A stretch of 64,000 bases of DNA from Candidatus Magasanikiibacteriota bacterium (GTDB lineage: Bacteria; Patescibacteriota; Patescibacteriia; Magasanikbacterales; UBA922), in the NCBI GenBank assembly GCA_003518365.1, contig DOYU01000021.1, positions 492-64,491 of the forward strand. Reading direction: 5' to 3'. Both the position numbers and the translations under genes were made by a program. The notes beneath the pieces were generated by a model. That model saw only the letters and a list, made by a program, of their open reading frames with translations, was not told where the DNA came from and did not search any database. Below are positions 21,412 to 31,401 of the stretch, piece after piece (the first letter of the stretch is position 1; each line of letters opens with the position of its first letter).

Positions 21412-21484
21412 GGGCGCATCGTATAGTGGTAGTACATTGGTCTCCAAAACCAATTGCGTGGGTTCGATTCCTACTGCGCCTGCA
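21412..21484 (+). tRNA. tRNA-Trp (anticodon CCA)
   Basis: Manual fold: acceptor GGGCGCA/TGCGCCT with a G1-U72 wobble, D-arm GTAT/GTAC, anticodon stem TTGGT/ACCAA with loop CTCCAAA, T-arm GTGGG-TTCGATT-CCTAC. CCA is not encoded. Confidence 0.8.
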
Positions 21485-21538
21485 CTGGAAAACATACCAA
21501 AAATAAGGTATGTTTTTATAGATAATAGAATAAACGAT

Positions 21539-21973
21539 ATGAAAAAAATAACCATCTCCCCCATGCCGACAATAGATTTTCTCTACATATTTTTTGCAGG
21601 TCTTTTGGGGGCAATCAGCTTCGGCATTGTATTTGGACTCATTGGTCTCTTGTTTGCAGATTATCTCGGCTTTCCACTCGCGGTAGGATCTGAAGAATTT
21701 ATGATGGGAGCTAGCATGATCTTCTACAGTACGCTTGCAATACCAGTCGGCGCATATATTGGATGCCTCAAAACTGCAAAATATTTATCATATACAACAA
21801 AAGACCTATACTCTTATTTTACAGGGTTTGTCCTTATTGCGATTGGATTATTTTTGAAAGATTATGTAAGTGTCTATTCATTGCTAGCATTCGGTGCAGT
21901 CAGTGCATTGGTCTTTGCAATGGTAATGGGGGTCTCTGCAAGCAAATCACAAAAGTCTGACATGACAAAATAG
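21539..21973 (+). CDS. Hypothetical integral membrane protein (4 TM)
   Basis: The track ORF 21410.. overlaps the tRNA, so I trimmed it to MKKITISPMPTIDFLYIFFAGLLG. Confidence 0.5.
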   Translation: MKKITISPMPTIDFLYIFFAGLLGAISFGIVFGLIGLLFADYLGFPLAVGSEEFMMGASMIFYSTLAIPVGAYIGCLKTAKYLSYTTKDLYSYFTGFVLIAIGLFLKDYVSVYSLLAFGAVSALVFAMVMGVSASKSQKSDMTK

Positions 21974-22059
21974 GTCAAATCGATTTAATCGTTATTCATA
22001 TCCAGCCCCAAGCTGAATTTTGAAGTATCGTTCCAAGTGCGTCTCACAACGCATGCTAA

Positions 22060-22095
22060 CAAGATAAGACTTACCCTAGTCTTATTTTTTTTACC
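22060..22095 (+). terminator. Rho-independent terminator
   Basis: AAGATAAGACTTA-ccc-TAGTCTTATTTTTTTT. Confidence 0.6.
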
Positions 22096-22176
22096 AAAAA
22101 TTGGATAATGTTTCTATAATAATATACTATATATGATAATCAAGAATATATTATTCAAGATTAATAGATATAGATT

Positions 22177-22827
22177 ATGTATAGAAAAGGAGAAGTCATA
22201 GGTGTCGGGAATGACAAACGCATATATGCTGACGCAATAACTCCTGAGACAAGAGTTATTGCTGAATTTCGCAAGGAACAAACACCTGAAGAAATAAAGA
22301 GTGTGTACTATCTTGGGAACATAGCTCATATATTATTCCCTCAAAATGTACCCAAAGTATATGAAGCAGGGATGCATCCACAAGAACATACGAAAGTAGA
22401 AAGAAAAAAGGTGGATGTCAATCATAAAAATACGGCTGATCTCATGGTGACATACGAAGATTATTTCATGGGAGATGGTGAAACGGGACCTTCTTCAGAA
22501 GAAGATAGTGAGATGGATGTAGATATAGAAAAAAAAGAAACCGATCCAAGAGTAAAACAACTTTTAACAAAAGCGTCTTCTGTCGGATTATATTTTGATA
22601 CAGGCGGACAAAATTTTTCTTTTGACGATTTGGGTACTGTCCAATATCTTGAAGTGAATCCAGCATTTCATATAGAAAAAAACCACGTCCGTTTGCACTT
22701 CAACGAAAGCAAATTAAGAGATGCCATACAAGCATTAGAAAATGAAAAAGAGAAAAAAAAGGCTACACTATATTTCGAACGATTGATGTCTTTGATCCAA
22801 GTAGCACAAAATAATCTTATACAATAG
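22177..22827 (+). CDS. Hypothetical acidic protein of 216 aa, AT-rich, apparently monocistronic between two terminators
   Basis: No recognisable motifs and an acidic middle region (SSEEDSEMDVDIEKKE). Confidence 0.4.
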   Translation: MYRKGEVIGVGNDKRIYADAITPETRVIAEFRKEQTPEEIKSVYYLGNIAHILFPQNVPKVYEAGMHPQEHTKVERKKVDVNHKNTADLMVTYEDYFMGDGETGPSSEEDSEMDVDIEKKETDPRVKQLLTKASSVGLYFDTGGQNFSFDDLGTVQYLEVNPAFHIEKNHVRLHFNESKLRDAIQALENEKEKKKATLYFERLMSLIQVAQNNLIQ

Positions 22828-22911
22828 TTCCAACTTCCTCCTTCCTCTACGATCCCCTGCACCTCCTGCAGTAGCTCCTGCCGGCAGGCAGGTTAGCGAA
22901 GGCACGGCACT

Positions 22912-22946
22912 TGAAAAACAGAGTGAAAAACACTCTGTTTTTCTTT
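22912..22946 (+). terminator. Rho-independent terminator
   Basis: AAAACAGAGTG-aaaaa-CACTCTGTTTTTCTTTTTG. Confidence 0.65.
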
Positions 22947-22951
22947 TTGAC

Positions 22952-23212
22952 ATGAAGGGAAGAACGGAGTATTGTACAAGTAAACATATACATTATATTG
23001 GTATGGCTCATCAAAAAAATACAATCGGAAAAAACATCAAACGATTACGGCAAGAACAAAAAATTTCCCAAGATCGTCTTTCAAAACTTGCGGATCTTTC
23101 TTTGAATACTATTGTTACCGTTGAAAGTGGCGCAAACGAAAATCCTACTATTGATACGCTCACAAGGATTGCGAAAGCGTTTCAAGTTGGCGTGGATGAC
23201 CTCATAACATAA
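22952..23212 (+). CDS. XRE-family HTH transcriptional regulator, first gene of the defence operon
   Basis: IGKNIKRLRQEQKISQDRLSKLADLSLNTIVTVESG is a classic Cro/C1 HTH. The true start may be the internal Met at 23003. Confidence 0.75.
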   Translation: MKGRTEYCTSKHIHYIGMAHQKNTIGKNIKRLRQEQKISQDRLSKLADLSLNTIVTVESGANENPTIDTLTRIAKAFQVGVDDLIT

Positions 23213-23220
23213 CACCCACT

Positions 23221-24198
23221 ATGTCTAAACAAACACCTACCAATAATCTCGCTATCTACCAAGCTAAAAACGGCGCGATTGAATTTCGCGGTGATTTTGA
23301 GCAAGAGACGGTTTGGGGAAATTTAAATCAAATTGCCGATCTTTTTGGTCGCGACAAGTCCGTTGTTTCCCGCCATATAAAAAACATCTATAAAACAGGC
23401 GAATTAAACGAAACGGCAACTGTTGCAAAAATTGCAACAGTTCAAAAGGAAGGAAGGAGAGAAGTGATGCGTGAAATTGAGTACTTCAACCTTGATGTTA
23501 TTTTGTCCGTTGGGTACAGAGTAGATTCCAAGCAAGCCACGCAATTCCGCAAATGGTCAACGCAAGCGCTCAAGGCACACCTTGTAGACGGGTATACCAT
23601 CAACAAAAAACGCATCGGTAATAACTACGAACACTTTTTGCGTGCAGTGGCAGAAACAAAAGCACTCCTCCCTGTGGGCAACAAGGTTTCTACCGAGGAT
23701 ATACTTGAACTCGTGAACGCATTTGCTGCTACGTGGTTTTCGCTCGATGCATATGACAAAGACGCATTTCCTCAAAAAACAGCCTCAAAAAAGTCAGTTT
23801 CAGTTGACACTGTAAAGCTACTCAATGCGATTGGTGAGTTGAAGCAAGAACTGATAACCAAAAAGCAAGCAACAAACCTATTTGCACAAGAAAGGAAGAC
23901 GGGAACAGTAGAAGGAATCGTCGGAAATGTATTTCAGTCTGCCTTTGGCAAAGATGTATATCCAAGTATAGAAGAAAAGGCCGCACACATCCTCTACTTC
24001 ATGGTAAAAAATCATCCATTCACCGATGGCAACAAGCGCAGCGGAGCCTTTGCATTTGTTTGGTTTCTACGAAAAGCTGGTTTACTCCGACCAAGTCTTA
24101 CTCCAGAAGCGTTGACTGCCATTACCCTCCTCATTGCAGAGAGTAATCCAAAAGATAAAGACAAAATGGTGGGACTAGTGGTGATGTTAATCAAATAA
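23221..24198 (+). CDS. RhuM-family N-domain fused to a Fic/Doc-type C-domain
   Basis: RhuM-like N-terminus: NLAIYQAKNGAIEFRGDFEQETVWGNLNQIADLFGRDKSVVSRHIKNI...YFNLDVILSVGYRVDSKQATQFRKWSTQ. C-terminal HPFTDGNKRSG matches the Doc/Fic motif HxFx(D/N)GNKR. Confidence 0.7.
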   Translation: MSKQTPTNNLAIYQAKNGAIEFRGDFEQETVWGNLNQIADLFGRDKSVVSRHIKNIYKTGELNETATVAKIATVQKEGRREVMREIEYFNLDVILSVGYRVDSKQATQFRKWSTQALKAHLVDGYTINKKRIGNNYEHFLRAVAETKALLPVGNKVSTEDILELVNAFAATWFSLDAYDKDAFPQKTASKKSVSVDTVKLLNAIGELKQELITKKQATNLFAQERKTGTVEGIVGNVFQSAFGKDVYPSIEEKAAHILYFMVKNHPFTDGNKRSGAFAFVWFLRKAGLLRPSLTPEALTAITLLIAESNPKDKDKMVGLVVMLIK

Positions 24199-24200
24199 CT

Positions 24201-25322
24201 ATGGCAAATAAAAACCTTACAAAAGCAAAAAAGGCAAAAAATGATGAATTTTATACTCAATTTTCAGATATTCAAAAAGAAGTTGAGTCTTATCTTGAGT
24301 ATAACCCAGATACTTTTAAAGATAAGATAATTTACAGTAATTGTGACGACCCGTTCGAAAGTAATTTCTTTCGCTATTTTGTATTAAATTTTGATCGTTT
24401 AGGACTAAAGAGACTTATTTCAACGAGCTACAAACCCTCACCTGTTGCCAATACGCAACTGGGATTATTTGGCGATGACAAAACACTTGAAAAAGTAAAA
24501 GGCCGTCCAAAAGTAACCGCTAACAAATTCATCATCAACGAAGTTGGCGATATCGACGGCGACGGCTCTTTTACGCTAGAAGATATTGCCCAACAGCTTC
24601 GAGCGAATAAAAATAACGAATGGACTCCGCTTGAGGGCGATGGTGATTTTAGAAGTGCCGAATGTGTCGAGTTGCTCAAACAATCTGACATCGTAGTTAC
24701 TAATCCTCCATTTAGTTTATTCCGTGAATATATTACGCAACTTTTCGAACACAAAAAGCAATTTCTAATTATTGGTAGCATGAACTCAATTACTTACAAA
24801 GAAATCTTTGTGTTGATTAAAAATAATAAATTGTGGTTAGGTAATGGGTTTAATGCTGGCAATGCATATTTTTCAACTCCCAATGCGCGAAAAGATTTTG
24901 CTTCTGGTGTGTATGATGAAAAAACTGGTCTTGTAAAATTTCGGAATTGTCATTGGTTTACTAATTTAGATCATGGTCGTCGTCATCAGCCTCTTAATCT
25001 GATGACAACAAATGAAAACCTAAGATTTAATAAAAAAATGCAAGGCAAAACTACTTATGATCGTTATGACAATTATGACGCTATTGATGTACCATTTACA
25101 AAAGCTATCCCTTCTGACTACGAAGGAGTAATGGGTGTTCCTATAAGCTTTCTCGATAAGTACAATCCTAATCAGTTTGAGATATTGGGCTCTGACACAG
25201 ACATAAAAGAAGGTAAACTTCCACTTTTAATAATAAGTAAATGGAATGGAAAGCTAGACAGAGGTTATATACATGGAAAGAGAATCTTCAGTAGAATGTT
25301 TATTAAGCACAAAAAGAAATAA
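24201..25322 (+). CDS. N6-adenine DNA methyltransferase (NPPF motif), tentatively EcoRI-methylase-like family
   Basis: TNPPF catalytic motif in [15 protein letters not shown]-terminal [10 protein letters not shown] block. Starts 3 nt after the upstream stop. Confidence 0.6.
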
Positions 25323-25323
25323 T

Positions 25324-26487
25324 ATGAAAACAACCTTAAAAAATGATATCACCGTTAAAGAAGTTTGCGACGGCTTTGAATACAACGAATTTGAAGGAAA
25401 AGGTTTGTTTGGTCTCTCTGGCAAACTAACTATTCAGCCAGAGTATCAGCGTAATTATATTTATGCTGACGGCAAACGTGACGTTGCTGTAATTGACTCA
25501 ATTTTAAAGGGTTATCCTATCGGTTTGATCTATTTCAATCAGGCTGGTAAAGACGAGTTTGAAGTATTAGATGGTCAACAGCGCATCACGAGTATAGGTC
25601 GTTTTGTTACTGGCAAATTTGCTGTTAAAGATAAAAACGGTCACGAGCAATACTACAGCGGTATGTCTGAGAGTCAGCGTGAGCAAATTATGAAGACTAA
25701 GTTGTTGGTGTATGTGTGCGAAGGTGACGAGCCTGAGATCAAAGATTGGTTCAAGACTATTAACATTGCTGGAGTGCCATTAACTGAACAAGAGATTCTT
25801 AACGCGGTATATTCTGGGCCATTCGTTACTCGAGCTCGTGAAGAGTTTAGTAATAGTCAAAATACCAACATCCAGAAATGGAGTGCGTACATCGCAGGTG
25901 ATATCAAGCGTCAGGCATACTTGGAACGAGCTCTAGATTGGGTTTCTGATGGATCAATCGATAGTTATATGAGCAAACACCGCAATGACAAAAATATTAC
26001 TGAACTAAAAAAACATTTTGATACTATCATTGACTGGGTCTCAACTATCTTTACTGACGTTGAGAGCGATATGAAAGGCCTTGAGTGGAACAGGATTTAT
26101 GAGACATATCACAAGAAGAAATACAATCCGACTACCATCTCTGCTTCTGTTCAGAAGCTCTATGCTGATGGTTTCGTAAAAAGTCGCAAAGGCATTTTTG
26201 AATATGTTTTAGGCGGAGAAGTTGAAACTAAACTACTTGAAATACGAGTATTTGAGGACTCAACAAAACGTTCAGTTTACGAAGCTCAAACTGCTATTGC
26301 AAAGAAAAAAGGTGTTTCAAACTGTCCACATTGTGCTATTGGGCATGATGCCAATAAAGAAAAAATTTGGACTTTAAGCGATATGGATGCTGATCATGTG
26401 GCTGCTTGGAGTAAAGGTGGAAAAACGGAAGCAAAAAACTGTGAGATGTTGTGTAAAACGCATAATCGTGCCAAAGGTAATCGGTAA
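25324..26487 (+). CDS. DUF262 (ParB/Srx-like) N-domain plus C-terminal HNH nuclease; GmrSD/SspE-like architecture
   Basis: DUF262 hallmark [11 protein letters not shown]...[13 protein letters not shown]-terminal CPHCAIGHD...[12 protein letters not shown]...[10 protein letters not shown] (CxxC...DH...N...CxxHN). Start MKTTLK sits 2 nt after the MTase stop. Confidence 0.65.
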
Positions 26488-26493
26488 AATATT

Positions 26494-27987
26494 ATGCACC
26501 TCACAAAAACCGACTATCTCGAATATACCTTTTGCAAAAAGAACCTTTGGCTCAAAAAACATAAGCCAGAGCTTTTTGAAGATGTAGAATTGTCGGAATT
26601 TGAAAAAAAAATTATTGAGGAAGGGAATTTGGCTGATGAGGCTGCAAGAAATTTATTTCCTGATGGAGAATTGATCGGTATCGTCGGAGTAAATGCTATA
26701 CCTGTTACAAAAAAGATACTGGAGAAAAACCCACCAGTATTATTTCAAGGTGCATTTTCATTCAATGACTTTTTTGTTCAAGCGGATATTTTACGTTACA
26801 ACGACATTTTAAAGGGTTGGGAACTTTACGAAGTAAAAGCAACAAATGATGTAAAACGAGAAATCCCTCATCACCATATCAACGACCTTGCGTTTCAAAA
26901 AATTGTAATTGAACAAAATGGGATACACATTATAAAAGCAGGCGTTATTCACCTTAACGGCGAATATAGACAACGAGGCAAAGTAAACTATAACGAACTG
27001 TTCATCATTGCCGAGCTTACTGATGAAGTACTAGAAGCGGAAGAACTTGTACGTGGGCAGATGCGTGATATTCACACATATATGGACATGGCAGAAGAAA
27101 AAAATTGTGAATGTTTGTATCGAGGTAGAAATGCACAATGTACAACGTTCGCTTACTCTAATCCTGAAGTGCCTGAATACTCTGTTCACGATATCAATAG
27201 AATTGGCGGAAGCAAAAAACTGTTTTTTGACTGGATAGATAGAGGGATCTACCGGCTCGAAGATATAGATAACCCAGAAAATCTTACAGGATCAAAAAAG
27301 GCACAATATACTGCGTACATAACAGGTAAGCCTCTCATAGACAAAGAAGCAATACAAAAAGAACTTGGTGAATTGGTTTTTCCTCTCCAATTTTTTGATT
27401 ACGAAGGATATTCTAGTGCTATCCCCAGCTTTAACGGCTTCGGTGCGTATGAACAAGTGCCTTTTCAATATTCACTACATACGCTCCATGAAGACGGAAC
27501 GCTTGAACACCGAGAATATCTCATCACAGAGCCAGAGAATGATTTGACTTTGCCATTGGTAGAAAGAATGAAAGAAGACTTTGATGATGTTGGTACTGTC
27601 ATATCTTGGTACAAATCATACGAATCACAACGAAACGACAAACTAGCAGAACTTCATCCAAATCATGCAGACTTTCTTATTGGCCTCAATGACAGAATGT
27701 TTGACCTCATGACAATGTTTTCCAAAAATTATTATGTGGATGCACGGTTCAAAGGGAGTGCAAGCATAAAAAATGTTCTGCCGGTCATTGTACCGGAATT
27801 AACGTACAAAGTACTTGGTATTCAAAAAGGAGATCAAGCAGTAGAACGTTGGGAAAAAATGATATTTGCAGATATTCATCCAGATGAAAAGAAAGAAATA
27901 AAAAAAGATTTGCTTGAGTATTGCAAATTGGATACTTTGGCGATGGTGAGGATTTGGGAGTTTCTAATGAAAATAAAAAATGTATGA
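26494..27987 (+). CDS. DUF2779-family protein (predicted PD-(D/E)xK-like nuclease N-domain plus RNase-H-like C-domain)
   Basis: N-terminal LTKTDYLEYTFCKKNLWL and C-terminal YCKLDTLAMVRIW are the blocks I recall for DUF2779. The identification is from memory, not searched. Confidence 0.5.
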   Translation: MHLTKTDYLEYTFCKKNLWLKKHKPELFEDVELSEFEKKIIEEGNLADEAARNLFPDGELIGIVGVNAIPVTKKILEKNPPVLFQGAFSFNDFFVQADILRYNDILKGWELYEVKATNDVKREIPHHHINDLAFQKIVIEQNGIHIIKAGVIHLNGEYRQRGKVNYNELFIIAELTDEVLEAEELVRGQMRDIHTYMDMAEEKNCECLYRGRNAQCTTFAYSNPEVPEYSVHDINRIGGSKKLFFDWIDRGIYRLEDIDNPENLTGSKKAQYTAYITGKPLIDKEAIQKELGELVFPLQFFDYEGYSSAIPSFNGFGAYEQVPFQYSLHTLHEDGTLEHREYLITEPENDLTLPLVERMKEDFDDVGTVISWYKSYESQRNDKLAELHPNHADFLIGLNDRMFDLMTMFSKNYYVDARFKGSASIKNVLPVIVPELTYKVLGIQKGDQAVERWEKMIFADIHPDEKKEIKKDLLEYCKLDTLAMVRIWEFLMKIKNV

Positions 27988-29219
27988 ATATGCACAGCCC
28001 TCTTTCTTCAATTCAACAACTACAATCAATATTAAGTAGTCCTTCGAAAAAAATCGGATTCCTTTTTGGGGCTGGAATTTCAATGGAAAAAAAAGATAAG
28101 AGTGATTTGGTGGTAGGAACTGATGACAAAAAAGATGAGAACGGTAATGTAATAAAAGAAGGAATGACAAGTCTCGCAATTAAAAATTTATCAGAGGAAC
28201 AAAAAAAAGCTGTAGATTTAATAAAGAATGAGGTTGAAACAGAAAATAAAAAATTTAACATCGAAAGTCTCTTATCAAAAATTTCTGAAAAAGAAAGAGC
28301 TGTTGGCGATCAAGAGCTTTGTGGTTTAACAAAAGAAAAATTATTAAATTTGAGAAAGGATATACAGGATAAAATAAGAGATTTGGTTTCCGTACATAGG
28401 GTGGATGATAAAGAAATTGATATTGAGGCATTAAATCACAGCACATTTGCTCAATGGATTAGTAATGCTGATAGAGAATTCTCAGTAGAAATTTTTACAA
28501 CAAATTACGATTATCTACTAGAACTAGCACTTGAAAAACAAGGAATTCCCTATTTCGATGGTTTTGTGGGTAGTTATGAAGCATTTTTTTGCCCTGAATG
28601 GATTGAAGATGACACGCCTGTCAAAAATTGGGTAAAGCTATGGAAATTACATGGTTCACTTGGTTGGGCACAGAATAGTAAAAAAGAAATAATTAGAACA
28701 TCTGGTAATACCGGTGCGGCGATGATATACCCTTCATTTTTGAAATATGACCATTCCAAAAAACAGCCATACTTGAGCTATATGGATAGATTGTCCGATT
28801 TTTTAAAGCAAGAAGATTCTGTCTTATTTGTTTGTGGTTATTCATTTGGAGATGAACATATAAATGAAATAATTTTGACAGCACTTACGCACTCTCGCTC
28901 ATCACATGTATTTGTGTTGAAAAATGGAGAAATGGAAAAATCTAGCCATCTTTCAAAAGAAATTGCACAAAAAAATTCTAGAATTTCAGTTTATGCAAAA
29001 CGTACCTGTATTATTGGAGGTAAATTTGGAGAATGGAAGCTCGATAGAGAACCAGACAGAAATGAATCCTACAACATATTAGATTATGCTTTTGATGAAG
29101 ACGCTACACCTGATGGAGTACCATGGACAGGAAGAGGTGATTTTCGTCTTGGAGACTTTAAAAAATTTACGGAGTTTTTAGAGCTTTTCTACCATAATTC
29201 GAGATATATCAATAAATGA
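27984..29219 (+). CDS. sir2: SIR2-family domain protein, the NADase partner of the SIR2-HerA system
   Basis: GFLFGAGIS...FTTNYDYLLE...KLHGSLGW...VCGYSFGDEHINEII is the SIR2_2-type motif set. The start ATG overlaps the DUF2779 stop (ATGA). Confidence 0.75.
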   Translation: MNMHSPLSSIQQLQSILSSPSKKIGFLFGAGISMEKKDKSDLVVGTDDKKDENGNVIKEGMTSLAIKNLSEEQKKAVDLIKNEVETENKKFNIESLLSKISEKERAVGDQELCGLTKEKLLNLRKDIQDKIRDLVSVHRVDDKEIDIEALNHSTFAQWISNADREFSVEIFTTNYDYLLELALEKQGIPYFDGFVGSYEAFFCPEWIEDDTPVKNWVKLWKLHGSLGWAQNSKKEIIRTSGNTGAAMIYPSFLKYDHSKKQPYLSYMDRLSDFLKQEDSVLFVCGYSFGDEHINEIILTALTHSRSSHVFVLKNGEMEKSSHLSKEIAQKNSRISVYAKRTCIIGGKFGEWKLDREPDRNESYNILDYAFDEDATPDGVPWTGRGDFRLGDFKKFTEFLELFYHNSRYINK

Positions 29220-29220
29220 C

Positions 29221-30999
29221 ATGAGAAATAAAGAGACATTTATAGGTAAAGTGAGAAGTGTCACAGGTAGTACGCTTGCTATTGAGTTACACGAAGATAT
29301 TAGATCAACGTTACCTATTATTGATGGGATATTATATAGAATTGGACAAATTGGTTCTTTTATAAGAATTCCTTTTGGTTATGTTGATTTATATGGAGTA
29401 ATTACACAAGCTGGATCAGACGCTATACCAGAAAAATTAGCGGAGCAAGAGGGTTTGAAAGGATCTCGCTGGATTAAGGCTACTCTTATTGGAGAAAGGG
29501 TCGGTAATAGATTTGAAAGAGGGGTGTTGCAATTTCCTATTGCTGATGACGAAGTTCATTTGGTCACGAAGGATGATTTGGAATTGATATATGGTGGAAT
29601 TGATGAATCAAAGTCAATAGTAGTTGGACAGGTCAGTGCCTCTGAAAATCTGTCAGCAAGAATAGATATAGACAGATTAATTAATAGACATTGCGCCATA
29701 CTTGGCTCTACAGGAAGTGGAAAATCAAATACAGTTTCTGTAATACTAGAAGCAATTGCTTCTAGACATCATGATGATGAAAATATAAAAAGTACGAGAA
29801 TTCTTTTGGTCGACCCTCATGGTGAGTATGGCGATATTTTAAAAAATTATAGTCAAATATTTAAGTTAGGAGCAGACTTGTCAAAAGGAGAAAAAGAACT
29901 AGTTGTTCCATATTGGGCTTTACCTTTTCAAGAATTTATAAAAAGTTTTCCAGGTAATCTAACTGAAAAGCAGGAAGAGTACATACGTGAAGAAATTCTA
30001 CAAAGAAAGATTAAGGCTTCTAAAAAATTAAATCCTATTCCACAAGAGGAGGCAATTACAGCTGATAGCCCTATCCCTTTCAGTATTAAACAACTATGGT
30101 TTGACCTTATTGATATAGAGCAAAAAACTTTTAATAACAAGGAGTTAACCGAAGTCGCACTCGAATCACTAGGCGATCCTGAGGCACTTAAGCCTAACAA
30201 ATACTCCATAGCGTCAACAAATAATACAGCCCCTTTCAGTAATAACAGGGTTGCGCAGGGTATTTCAAGTTTTTTAAACTTAATGCGGAATAGAATTTTA
30301 GATCAAAGATTTAAGTTTTTATTCAAACTAGACACGCTCTCTCCTGGTATTGACGGAACTATTTCAAGTGATTTAGACAGTCTCATTGAAAGTTGGATTG
30401 GGACAGAGAAACCAATAACTATTTTAGACCTATCGAGTATACCCTCTGAAATCATGGGTTCAATTTCTGGTTCTTTGCTTTCAATAATTTATGAATTTCT
30501 ATATTGGGGACAGAATGAAGATGTGGGAGGTCGCCAAACACCTATTCTGTTTGTACTAGAAGAGGCACATAATTATCTAAAGTCAGGCGAGAATTCTATT
30601 GCCTCAAGAACTGTACAAAAAATTGCAAAAGAGGGTAGAAAATATGGTTCAGGTTTACTACTCGTAACCCAACGACCTTCTGAACTGGATGATACTGTTT
30701 TGAGTCAATGTGGTTCAGTTATCGCGTTGAGAATGACAAATTCTAGCGATAGAGGCCACGTAAAGAGTGCTGTCGAGGATTCCCTAAACGAGTTAGTTGA
30801 TTTGCTTCCGAGCCTAAGAACAGGTGAAGGTTTAATTATGGGTGAATGTGTAAAATTACCTATGCGAACTAAATTTTCTAAAACTAGGGAATCTAAAAGT
30901 ACAGACCCACTTGTTTCTAAGCAGTGGAAAACAACTCTTCCAGAATCCTCTAACTATAATAAAGTTTTAGAAAATTGGAGAAATAATAAATTTTCTTAA
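29221..30999 (+). CDS. herA: HerA-like (DUF87) ATPase/helicase, partner of SIR2
   Basis: Walker A AILGSTGSGKSNTVSVILE, Walker B ILFVLEEAHNYL, and LLLVTQRPSELDDTVLSQCGSVIALRMTN (sensor/arginine-finger region). Starts 2 nt after the SIR2 stop. Confidence 0.8.
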   Translation: MRNKETFIGKVRSVTGSTLAIELHEDIRSTLPIIDGILYRIGQIGSFIRIPFGYVDLYGVITQAGSDAIPEKLAEQEGLKGSRWIKATLIGERVGNRFERGVLQFPIADDEVHLVTKDDLELIYGGIDESKSIVVGQVSASENLSARIDIDRLINRHCAILGSTGSGKSNTVSVILEAIASRHHDDENIKSTRILLVDPHGEYGDILKNYSQIFKLGADLSKGEKELVVPYWALPFQEFIKSFPGNLTEKQEEYIREEILQRKIKASKKLNPIPQEEAITADSPIPFSIKQLWFDLIDIEQKTFNNKELTEVALESLGDPEALKPNKYSIASTNNTAPFSNNRVAQGISSFLNLMRNRILDQRFKFLFKLDTLSPGIDGTISSDLDSLIESWIGTEKPITILDLSSIPSEIMGSISGSLLSIIYEFLYWGQNEDVGGRQTPILFVLEEAHNYLKSGENSIASRTVQKIAKEGRKYGSGLLLVTQRPSELDDTVLSQCGSVIALRMTNSSDRGHVKSAVEDSLNELVDLLPSLRTGEGLIMGECVKLPMRTKFSKTRESKSTDPLVSKQWKTTLPESSNYNKVLENWRNNKFS

Positions 31000-31010
31000 T
31001 TATTAAACAT

Positions 31011-31223
31011 ATGGAAAGAAAACCAGTACAATCATCAAATCTTGCTGCTATTGGATATGATCCTTTGACAGAAACTTTGGAGGTGGAATTCACAGATGGG
31101 TCTGTCTATGAGTATAAGAACGTCTCTCAATTTATATACGATGAGCTGATGAATGCTTCGTCTCATGGTTCTTATTTTAATAGAGAAATCAGTAAAAGTT
31201 TTCCGTATGAGAAAATAGGTTAA
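31011..31223 (+). CDS. KTSC-domain small protein (70 aa), last gene of the operon
   Basis: PVQSSNLAAIGYDPLTETLEVEFTDGSVYEYKNVSQFIYDELMNASSHGSYFNREI matches the KTSC domain consensus. Confidence 0.7.
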   Translation: MERKPVQSSNLAAIGYDPLTETLEVEFTDGSVYEYKNVSQFIYDELMNASSHGSYFNREISKSFPYEKIG

Positions 31224-31242
31224 ATATGAAATAGGATTGTTT

Positions 31243-31289
31243 GAGGGAGGGGCAATTCTCCTTTTTGATTCCCCTCTTCCCCCTCCCCC
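31243..31289 (+). terminator. Putative imperfect G/C-tract hairpin with an internal T-run at the end of the defence operon
   Basis: GAGGGAGGGG-caattctcctttttgatt-CCCCTCTTCCCCCTCCCCC. Confidence 0.35.
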
Positions 31290-31401
31290 AAACCAGAAAT
31301 AGAAGTTTTGAATGAATAGAATTAATTGGATACAATTGGACGTAGTTAATATATCCAAAAACCAATAATCTGTTATACTTTCATAGAAGTATCATTCTCA
31401 C

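What the first reader, a model, noticed from the sequence alone, without database searches (positions are those of the whole stretch)
26494..29219. DUF2779 nuclease-like gene is translationally coupled to SIR2, hinting at a three-component DUF2779-SIR2-HerA variant
The DUF2779 stop TGA overlaps the first SIR2 ATG (GTATGAATATG), and the SIR2 stop is 2 nt from the HerA start. Canonical SIR2-HerA is two-gene. A coupled PD-(D/E)xK-like/RNase-H-like partner could be an added effector or sensor.
Basis: partly seen in the sequence, partly recalled or inferred. Interest (0 to 1): 0.6.

Follow-up and report, generated by a model that had tools for sequence, protein, structure and literature searches.

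The report
Exchangeable nuclease beside SIR2-HerA-KTSC defence cassette
The overlap between the DUF2779 nuclease gene and the SIR2 gene is real, and close relatives of this SIR2-HerA anti-phage system usually carry a similar double nuclease next door, but the gene that always travels with the system is a small KTSC protein, and the nuclease mostly occurs elsewhere without SIR2-HerA.

Summary
The DUF2779 stop (TGA 27985-27987) overlaps the first SIR2 ATG (27984) as ATGA, and HerA starts 1 nt after the SIR2 stop. The overlap itself says little: the whole run of eight same-strand genes (22952-31223) is packed at -4 to +11 nt, apart from one 50-nt ORF overlap that is probably a start-codon artefact.

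1. The invariant third gene is a 70-aa KTSC protein (31011-31223). It follows HerA in 62 of 62 related loci.
2. In the window's own SIR2 sub-clade (about 60-81% SIR2 identity), a Cas4-like plus RNase-H-like exonuclease gene sits beside the cassette in 11 of 14 loci. The figure is 4 of 46 in more distant loci.
3. That slot is filled by three different nuclease lineages, in Patescibacteria and Desulfobacterota, usually upstream of SIR2 and once downstream of KTSC.
4. Against a fixed three-component system, 53 of 53 loci of the window's nuclease lineage found by searching with the nuclease lack SIR2-HerA. In those loci restriction-modification genes lie upstream in 18 and downstream in none.
5. 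Base composition is mosaic, and the spacing between nuclease and SIR2 is not conserved.

Best reading: a facultative, exchangeable accessory nuclease, probably acting on DNA ends. This would be a new variant of SIR2-HerA. Simple co-residence in a defence island is not excluded.

The parts
21412..21483 (+). tRNA-Trp(CCA) at the left edge of the low-GC island
   Evidence: ARAGORN. GC falls from 0.43-0.47 to 0.32-0.40 between about 21.0 and 31.3 kb. No tRNA-derived direct repeat was found at the far end.
22913..22943 (+). Terminator-like hairpin (13-bp stem plus T-run) followed by a TTGACA promoter-like site. Likely start of the eight-gene co-directional array.
   Evidence: No other + strand terminator-like site with a comparable stem (the others have 5-6 bp) until 31467. 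These are pattern matches only.
22952..23212 (+). Small HTH (XRE-type) protein, first gene of the array
   Evidence: The identical gene in L001 carries HTH_3/HTH_19.
23221..24198 (+). RhuM/Fic-domain protein (PADLOC candidate PDC-S23)
   Evidence: Pfam Virulence_RhuM 6e-23 and Fic 1.6e-12; PDC-S23 6.6e-112.
24201..25322 (+). EcoRI-like adenine methyltransferase (type II R-M)
   Evidence: PF13651 3e-127; PADLOC MTase_II 2.8e-106.
25273..26487 (+). Restriction endonuclease (GmrSD_N/DUF262 plus HNH). The true start is probably the internal ATG near 25324.
   Evidence: PADLOC REase_II 1.7e-88, aligned from residue 23; Pfam GmrSD_N 1.3e-22 and HNH 2e-5.
26494..27987 (+). DUF2779 nuclease: N-terminal Cas4/MGME1/RecE-like PD-(D/E)xK domain with four Cys, fused to a C-terminal DEDDy 3'-5' exonuclease domain
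   Evidence: PF11074 1.1e-34. PADLOC Cas4 2e-5. These residues are invariant in 23 homologues (sequence context): C14, D98, E113, K115, C205, C207, C216, D302, E304, D404, Y476, D480. The AF2 model (pLDDT 78.6) matches MGME1, Cas4 and RecE, and ExoI weakly. The architecture is as described in PMC13621843 and PMC3985635.
27984..29219 (+). SIR2 (SIR2_2) NADase-type effector. Start is ATG 27984 (ATGA overlap) or ATG 27990.
   Evidence: PF13289 8.5e-22; PADLOC SIR2 PDLC04093 6.5e-108. N174, D176 and H223 are invariant in 24 homologues.
29221..30999 (+). HerA-family hexameric ATPase/translocase
   Evidence: PF01935 1e-36 and HerA_C 5e-10; PADLOC HerA PDLC04105 2.1e-150.
31011..31223 (+). 70-aa KTSC-domain protein, the invariant third gene of this SIR2-HerA subtype
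   Evidence: PF13619 on the identical gene in L001. A homologue directly follows HerA in 62 of 62 non-redundant loci that extend at least 250 nt past HerA. It is annotated as KTSC on E. coli plasmid NZ_CP010123. PADLOC has no model for it.

Best explanation
The window holds a roughly 9-kb low-GC defence island next to tRNA-Trp. It contains HTH-RhuM/Fic, a type II R-M pair, a DUF2779 double nuclease, and a SIR2-HerA-KTSC cassette. SIR2-HerA-KTSC is the real core unit. The DUF2779 gene is a facultative, exchangeable accessory. In the window's sub-clade of SIR2-HerA-KTSC, some Cas4-like (5'-3', Fe-S, PD-(D/E)xK) plus RNase-H-like (3'-5') fusion nuclease is almost always encoded next to the cassette, but the lineage that fills the slot changes. 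The same nucleases also serve, or sit behind, R-M systems without SIR2-HerA.

Proposed mechanism (inferred, not shown): the nuclease works on DNA ends, for instance on fragments made by the adjacent restriction enzyme, and resects both strands. HerA, with KTSC as a DNA-binding adaptor, engages such end-exposed DNA. In the studied E. coli type III system, end-exposed DNA drives the HerA ATPase and releases the ATP block on the SIR2 NADase (PMC13434337). The nuclease would then either feed the trigger to SIR2-HerA or be the first-line activity that SIR2-HerA backs up, leading to NAD+ depletion and abortive infection.

Shown: gene identities, catalytic motifs, adjacency statistics, lineage swapping. 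Inferred: any physical or functional interaction.
For: Nuclease adjacency is 11 of 14 in near-clade SIR2 loci against 4 of 46 in far-clade loci (Fisher p 1.1e-6).

Three nuclease lineages occupy the slot. They are 21-37% identical between groups, while SIR2 is 60-81% and HerA 71-86% identical. L148's SIR2 is closest to the window and L147 (both group A) yet it carries a group C nuclease.

L149/L150 repeat the window's layout exactly (EcoRI-type MTase, GmrSD_N/HNH REase, nuclease, SIR2, HerA, KTSC, including an ATGA overlap), but with a TM0106/TIGR03491 nuclease in place of DUF2779.

The arrangement occurs in Patescibacteria MAGs and in the isolates Desulfuromusa kysingii and Desulfoprunum benzoelyticum.

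All nuclease genes are co-directional with the cassette.

Both nuclease active sites and the four Cys are invariant, and the fold matches Cas4, MGME1, RecE and ExoI.

In group B loci the cassette is followed by SbcD/SbcC (Mre11/Rad50-like) genes. This recalls the archaeal herA-nurA-mre11-rad50 end-resection cluster (established knowledge).

Dependence of Sir2-HerA activation on DNA ends is reported in PMC13434337.
Against: 0 of 53 loci with 58-86% identical DUF2779 have SIR2 or HerA within 10 kb. Some are closer to the window's protein (L008, 86%) than L154's (68%), which does have the cassette.

In those loci the nuclease sits at the 3' end of R-M or RhuM genes (R-M upstream in 18 of 53, downstream in 0 of 53). 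It may therefore belong with the R-M module.

GC mosaicism suggests separate histories: L155 has nuclease 0.52 and SbcCD 0.50-0.52 against SIR2 0.35, HerA 0.41 and KTSC 0.36.

Group B loci have 46-54-nt spacers between nuclease and SIR2, each with its own Shine-Dalgarno-like sequence. L155 has a TGnTATAAT-like element.

L153 and L072 lack the nuclease although both flanks are visible.

The near-clade loci are not phylogenetically independent, and the near/far cut-off was chosen after seeing the data.

DUF2779 is quasi-essential in minimal Mycoplasma (PMC13621843), which implies a housekeeping role in at least some lineages.
Confidence: 0.5

Rival explanations
1. Independent neighbours in a defence island. 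The DUF2779 nuclease is an accessory or terminal gene of R-M operons, or a stand-alone defence gene. SIR2-HerA-KTSC is a highly mobile low-GC cassette that tends to embed in DNA-processing loci: between hsdS and hsdR, after R-M plus nuclease, or between DUF2779 and sbcCD. Adjacency and the ATGA overlap reflect genome compaction and do not indicate a shared mechanism.
For: R-M genes lie upstream of group A DUF2779 in 18 of 53 loci and downstream in none, and the Res gene overlaps DUF2779 by 4 nt in L043 and L047. Far-clade SIR2-HerA-KTSC loci are embedded among type I, IIG and III R-M genes. GC is mosaic. An OLD-family gene is inserted between KTSC and SbcD in L172, which suggests a variable slot. 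Spacing is not conserved, and SIR2 has SD-like or promoter-like elements of its own. Plasmid DUF2779 genes sit with SbcC-like ATPases, dGTPase and R-M, without SIR2-HerA.
Against: R-M adjacency is also common in the far clade, yet the nuclease is rare there (4 of 46) and frequent in the near clade (11 of 14). Three lineages that share only 21-37% identity cannot be a common sequence-specific insertion target. In L151/L152 and L155 the visible flanks show no R-M gene next to the nuclease.
Confidence: 0.37
2. The DUF2779 gene is a housekeeping DNA-repair nuclease, a substitute for RecB/AddB-like activities in small genomes. Its flank happens to be a hotspot where defence genes accumulate.
For: It is quasi-essential in JCVI-syn3.0 (PMC13621843). 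It is very conserved (58-86% identity) across Uhrbacteria and Magasanikbacteria MAGs. LexA, SmpB, trigger factor, fmt/def and FtsH are among its neighbours in some loci.
Against: In the window it lies inside the low-GC island rather than at its edge. There is no conserved synteny on either side in 53 loci. It is plasmid-borne in many taxa. A distant analogue replaces it in the same slot.
Confidence: 0.1

Closest known systems
SIR2-HerA (Nezha; E. coli types I-III; PADLOC 'SIR2-HerA')
   Same: A SIR2_2 protein is followed immediately by a HerA/DUF87 ATPase, with top PADLOC hits to the SIR2 and HerA models. The SIR2 N/D/H residues are conserved. The expected mode is NAD+ depletion gated by HerA and DNA (PMC11472057, PMC11514289, PMC13434337).
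   Different: It is described and modelled as a two-gene system. Here a KTSC gene always follows HerA, and in this sub-clade a Cas4-like/exonuclease gene usually flanks the cassette. Neither has a model in PADLOC-DB v2. No paper in the searched library links DUF2779 to HerA.
HerA-KTSC-endoDNase systems noted by Iyer, Burroughs and Aravind (PMC9503650, as an unpublished observation)
   Same: A HerA-like ATPase coupled to a KTSC DNA-binding protein and a DNase.
   Different: In their description the endoDNase replaces the sirtuin. Here sirtuin, KTSC and a nuclease occur together.
Archaeal/Deinococcus HerA-NurA with Mre11-Rad50 (DNA-end resection)
   Same: HerA plus a nuclease, and in group B loci SbcD/SbcC (Mre11/Rad50 homologues), in one gene cluster.
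   Different: The nuclease is Cas4-like plus DEDD, not NurA. A SIR2 effector and KTSC are present. The context is a defence island.
DUF2779 / UU173 family solo-Cas4-like nucleases (MMSYN1_0389)
   Same: The same two-domain architecture and catalytic residues (PMC13621843; NCBIfam UU173_fam 1.2e-16 over the C-terminal part, below cut-off).
   Different: All four Cas4 cysteines are kept here, whereas Mycoplasma keeps two. The setting is a defence island or R-M locus rather than a minimal-genome housekeeping context.
PrrC embedded in the EcoprrI type I R-M locus (abortive-infection effector guarding a restriction system)
   Same: A suicide-type module is embedded in or next to a restriction locus. 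Far-clade cassettes sit among hsd genes.
   Different: No evidence here for inhibition by, or sensing of, the neighbouring nuclease. This is an analogy only.

Membership tests
SIR2-HerA defence system | SIR2_2-domain protein with conserved NADase residues | tested here: met
   PF13289 8.5e-22; PDLC04093 6.5e-108. N174, D176 and H223 are invariant.
SIR2-HerA defence system | HerA (DUF87) ATPase gene immediately downstream, on the same strand | tested here: met
   1-nt spacer; PDLC04105 2.1e-150. HerA follows SIR2 in 75 of 80 related loci. The other five either end before a HerA gene could be seen or, for L073, use genetic code 4, under which HerA was later found.
SIR2-HerA defence system | Two-gene composition | tested here: not met
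   A KTSC gene follows HerA in 62 of 62 loci, so this subtype has at least three genes.
SIR2-HerA defence system | Anti-phage activity through NAD+ depletion | not testable with these tools
   Needs plaque assays and NAD+ measurement.
DUF2779 (PF11074) Cas4-DEDD fusion nucleases | PF11074 match above the gathering score | tested here: met
   119.9 bits against a cut-off of 23.3.
DUF2779 (PF11074) Cas4-DEDD fusion nucleases | N-terminal PD-(D/E)xK (D...ExK) with Cas4-type cysteines | tested here: met
   D98, E113, K115 and C14, C205, C207, C216 are invariant. PADLOC Cas4 2e-5. Foldseek finds MGME1, Cas4 and RecE. No enzymatic test was done.
DUF2779 (PF11074) Cas4-DEDD fusion nucleases | C-terminal DEDD(h/y) exonuclease residues | tested here: met
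   D302, E304, D404, Y476 and D480 are invariant. ExoI-like fold hits are weak.
Proposed DUF2779-SIR2-HerA multi-gene variant | Nuclease adjacency conserved among relatives of the SIR2-HerA cassette | tested here: met
   Met in the near clade only: 11 of 14, against 4 of 46 in the far clade and 0 of 7 in distant viral-contig loci.
Proposed DUF2779-SIR2-HerA multi-gene variant | SIR2-HerA adjacency conserved among relatives of the nuclease | tested here: not met
   0 of 53 group A loci found by searching with the nuclease. Only the window, L147 and L154 in that lineage carry the cassette.
Proposed DUF2779-SIR2-HerA multi-gene variant | Conserved gene order and translational coupling | tested here: not met
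   Gaps run from -4 to +54 nt. The nuclease is downstream of KTSC in L151, and a GmrSD gene intervenes in L073.
Proposed DUF2779-SIR2-HerA multi-gene variant | Physical or functional dependence | not testable with these tools
   No multimer prediction or experiment was available.
HerA-NurA end-resection module | NurA-domain nuclease partner | tested here: not met
   No NurA hit. The nuclease is Cas4-like plus DEDD.

The most novel reading that the evidence does not exclude
A previously unrecognised multi-gene SIR2-HerA subtype in which HerA, a KTSC DNA-binding subunit and an exchangeable Cas4-like/DEDD double exonuclease form a DNA-end-resection machine wired to a NADase suicide effector. In some hosts Mre11/Rad50-like SbcCD genes are part of the cluster. 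This would be a bacterial defence counterpart of archaeal HerA-NurA-Mre11-Rad50, with the nuclease slot filled repeatedly by different lineages.
Probability: 0.35. Interest if true: 0.75.

Novelty: new variant of a known kind. Interest (0 to 1): 0.6.

Why it matters
SIR2-HerA is studied and annotated as a two-gene system. If the KTSC protein and a flanking double exonuclease are working parts in a large sub-family, then reconstitutions with two genes miss components. Those components may decide how DNA ends are generated, recognised and coupled to NAD+ depletion. It would also give the widespread, uncharacterised DUF2779 and TM0106 nucleases their first testable role, as partners of R-M and abortive-infection systems. 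The cassettes in two cultured Desulfobacterota provide cloneable material.

Tried and rejected
1. The first phmmer survey of 80 SIR2 loci, using only the window's DUF2779 as query, found 6 hits and suggested a weak link. It missed the TM0106/PF13482-type analogues. HMMs built from both nuclease types corrected this.

2. An apparent SIR2 frameshift in the sister contig L001 looked like evidence that DUF2779 is kept without SIR2. It is a 10-N scaffold gap.

3. No tRNA-Trp-derived direct repeats were found as island att sites.

4. The promoter and terminator scan gave promoter-like counts at shuffle level (34 against 32.3). It cannot separate transcription units. Only the 22913-22943 hairpin stands out.

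5. A profile search of PDB sequences with the DUF2779 alignment found nothing. Fold search gave only weak domain-level matches.

6. Plasmid and viral collections held only distant SIR2 relatives (30-40% identity), without the nuclease.

7. No literature in the searched library links DUF2779 to HerA or SIR2.

8. The 343-aa gene that follows KTSC in far-clade loci has no hit in Pfam, NCBIfam, PADLOC or PDB.
Full report
**Observation**

- ORF 26494-27987 encodes a 497-aa protein with PF11074/DUF2779 (E 1.1e-34) and weak Cas4 hits in its N-terminal half.
- Its TGA stop (27985-27987) overlaps an in-frame ATG of the next ORF (27984-27986) as ATGA. A second in-frame ATG lies at 27990.
- The next ORF is a SIR2_2 protein (PADLOC SIR2 6.5e-108). 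Its stop is at 29217-29219. HerA (PADLOC 2.1e-150) starts at 29221, so the spacer is 1 nt.
- Homologues of the SIR2 protein begin M-x-x-H-N/D-P. This fits the first ATG. Public gene callers used the second ATG.

The overlap is not informative on its own.
- Eight co-directional genes from 22952 to 31223 are packed with gaps of -4 to +11 nt. The one larger ORF overlap (-50 nt, MTase/REase) probably reflects a mis-set REase start.
- No strong terminator-like site lies between the hairpin at 22913-22943 and 31467.
- In 53 loci of close DUF2779 homologues, 16 of 38 same-strand downstream genes lie within 10 nt. They belong to unrelated families.

**Surroundings**

The array consists of:
- an HTH protein;
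- a RhuM/Fic protein (PDC-S23);
- an EcoRI-like methyltransferase;
- a GmrSD_N/HNH restriction enzyme;
- the DUF2779 nuclease;
- SIR2;
- HerA;
- a 70-aa KTSC protein at 31011-31223.

It lies just downstream of tRNA-Trp (21412-21483). GC is 0.32-0.40 across most of the block, against 0.43-0.47 in the flanks. This is a defence island. No att-like repeat was found.

**The nuclease**

Twenty-three homologues share invariant C14, D98, E113-x-K115, C205-x-C207 and C216, which is a Cas4-type PD-(D/E)xK site with four cysteines. They also share D302-x-E304, D404 and Y476-x3-D480, a DEDDy exonuclease site. An AlphaFold2 model (pLDDT 78.6) gives domain-level matches to MGME1, Cas4 and RecE, and weaker matches to ExoI. 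This agrees with published descriptions of the family (PMC3985635, PMC13621843). No sequence-level PDB hit was found.

**Survey from the nuclease side**

A scan of one genome per species returned 59 loci with 56-87% identical proteins, mostly Uhrbacteria and Magasanikbacteria MAGs. Fifty-three of them carried a near-full-length gene, with 58-86% identity.
- None has a SIR2 or HerA homologue within 10 kb.
- Neighbourhoods are not syntenic. The largest neighbour family occurs in 7 loci.
- Upstream neighbours are rich in ResIII, N6_N4_Mtase, N6_Mtase, SWI2_SNF2 and RhuM.
- Downstream neighbours are ABC transporters and housekeeping genes.
- R-M genes lie within 4.5 kb upstream in 18 of 53 loci and downstream in 0 of 53 (binomial p about 8e-6).
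- In L043 and L047 the type III Res gene overlaps DUF2779 by 4 nt, and in L013 the Res ORF overlaps by 22 nt.

This lineage therefore usually sits at the 3' end of R-M or RhuM modules, without SIR2-HerA.

**Survey from the SIR2 side**

Eighty metagenome loci, nine viral-contig loci and ten context look-ups were analysed with phmmer and with two home-made nuclease HMMs.

First result: a KTSC homologue follows HerA in 62 of 62 non-redundant loci that extend past HerA.
- This includes loci with only 30-40% SIR2 identity.
- It includes an E. coli IncF plasmid, where PGAP annotates the gene as KTSC.
- KTSC has no PADLOC model.
- In the searched literature it is linked to HerA only by one sentence in PMC9503650.

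Second result: in the sub-clade nearest the window (SIR2 60-81% and HerA 71-86% identical), a Cas4-like plus RNase-H-like nuclease lies within one gene of the cassette in 11 of 14 loci.

| Nuclease lineage | Loci | Position and context |
|---|---|---|
| DUF2779 group A | window, L147, L154 | Upstream of SIR2 |
| DUF2779 group B (about 33% identical to A) | L070, L155 (Desulfuromusa kysingii), L156 (Desulfoprunum benzoelyticum), L172 | Upstream of SIR2. The cassette is followed by SbcD/SbcC. |
| Group C, TM0106 RecB-like (TIGR03491/PF13482; 21-27% identical to A and B) | L148, L149 | Upstream of SIR2 |
| Group C | L151 | Downstream of KTSC |
| DUF2779 (group not assigned) | L073 (genetic code 4) | Upstream, with a GmrSD gene between it and SIR2 |

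- L153 and L072 lack the nuclease with both flanks visible. L171 lacks it upstream, and its downstream flank is not visible.
- In the 40-52% clade the nuclease appears in 4 of 46 loci with at least one visible flank. In distant viral-contig loci it appears in 0 of 7.
- Near against far gives Fisher p = 1.1e-6.
- L149/L150 reproduce the window's layout gene for gene, including an ATGA overlap, but with a group C nuclease.
- L148's SIR2 is closest to the group A loci, yet L148 carries a group C nuclease. The slot has therefore been refilled at least once.

**Evidence against one co-transferred unit**

- In group B loci the nuclease and SbcCD share GC (0.44-0.52), while SIR2-HerA-KTSC between them is at 0.32-0.41.
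- An OLD-family gene is inserted after KTSC in L172.
- Spacers of 46-54 nt in group B loci carry their own SD-like sequences, and L155 has a TGnTATAAT-like element.
- Far-clade cassettes are embedded among type I, IIG and III R-M genes.
- Plasmid-borne DUF2779 genes (Arcobacter, Helicobacter and others) sit with SbcC-like ATPases, dGTPase and R-M, not with SIR2-HerA.

**Interpretation**

The asymmetry is the key fact. Cassettes of this clade nearly always have a double nuclease beside them, while the nucleases mostly occur without the cassette. The repeated refilling of the slot by distant lineages adds to this. The pattern fits a generic, exchangeable helper better than either a fixed subunit or a chance neighbour.

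The mechanism I favour is inferred. The nuclease processes DNA ends, for example restriction fragments. HerA-KTSC engages end-exposed DNA. In E. coli type III Sir2-HerA such DNA drives the ATPase and unlocks the NADase (PMC13434337). The nuclease would then either supply the trigger or be the first line that the abortive module backs up. The SbcCD genes in group B loci recall the HerA-NurA-Mre11-Rad50 cluster.

The main rival is pure co-residence. Under that view both modules are attracted to R-M loci. It explains the GC mosaic and the variable spacing. It does not explain the contrast between the near and far clades or the lineage swapping.

**Caveats**

- ORFs in fetched loci were called crudely, as the longest ORFs chosen greedily.
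- Many contigs are short.
- Near-clade loci are related to one another.
- The clade cut-off was set after inspection.
- No interaction or activity was tested.

**Verdict**

The system is best described as a SIR2-HerA-KTSC subtype with a facultative Cas4-like/exonuclease accessory. This is a new variant of a known kind, of moderate to good interest.

Noticed in passing
window 31011-31223; L068-L172: A 70-aa KTSC-domain gene follows HerA in 62 of 62 related loci, including an E. coli IncF plasmid (NZ_CP010123). It has no PADLOC model and is almost unmentioned in the SIR2-HerA literature. This subtype is really a three-gene system.
   Followed up: yes
L103:9337-10368 and 11 other far-clade loci (L095, L104, L111, L119, L124, L133 and others): An uncharacterised gene of about 343 aa lies directly after KTSC in 12 loci. 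It is 69-76% identical among seven members and has a conserved GDIIC...IECKF stretch that looks like a PD-(D/E)xK motif. It has no hit in Pfam, NCBIfam, PADLOC or PDB. It may be another nuclease occupying the accessory slot.
   Followed up: partly
L070, L155, L156, L172 (downstream of KTSC): SbcD/SbcC-like (Metallophos plus AAA_23/SMC_N) genes follow the cassette. Their GC matches the upstream DUF2779 and not SIR2-HerA-KTSC, as if the cassette, plus an OLD nuclease in L172, sits inside a DUF2779...SbcCD frame.
   Followed up: partly
L008-L063 (53 loci of close DUF2779 homologues): There is a strong orientation bias. R-M genes lie within 4.5 kb upstream of DUF2779 in 18 loci and downstream in none. 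Type III Mod-Res-DUF2779 recurs in L013, L015, L043, L047 and L154.
   Followed up: yes
window 21412-31300: A low-GC block (about 0.32-0.40 against 0.43-0.47 in the flanks) begins near tRNA-Trp and ends before the GH3 gene. It looks like a tRNA-adjacent genomic island, but no flanking direct repeat or integrase was found.
   Followed up: partly
L067 (JGI Ga0209728_1009678), equivalent to window 26636-26682 and 27103-27136: A contig that is otherwise nucleotide-identical has two in-frame deletions in DUF2779 (aa 48-63 and 204-215). The second removes C205 and C207 of the cysteine cluster. This could be a population variant or an assembly artefact.
   Followed up: partly
window 25273-25323: The 50-nt overlap between the methyltransferase and restriction-enzyme ORFs is probably spurious. 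An internal ATG near 25324, 1 nt after the MTase stop, fits the PADLOC REase alignment, which starts at residue 23.
   Followed up: no
window 22177-22827: A 216-aa ORF between the tRNA and the HTH gene has no significant family hit in Pfam, PADLOC or NCBIfam. It is conserved only in the sister contigs.
   Followed up: no
L001 (ENA ERZ28564383), equivalent to window 28982 and 31288: The sister scaffold has 10-N gaps that split SIR2 into two called ORFs. This is an annotation artefact that could be mistaken for a pseudogene.
   Followed up: yes
L151/L152 14059-15489: A Schlafen/AlbA_2 plus HATPase_c_4 protein (hits to PADLOC pAgo-associated models), a SocA/Panacea antitoxin-like gene and a RhuM gene lie downstream of the nuclease. 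This is another dense defence island in a Parcubacteria MAG.
   Followed up: no
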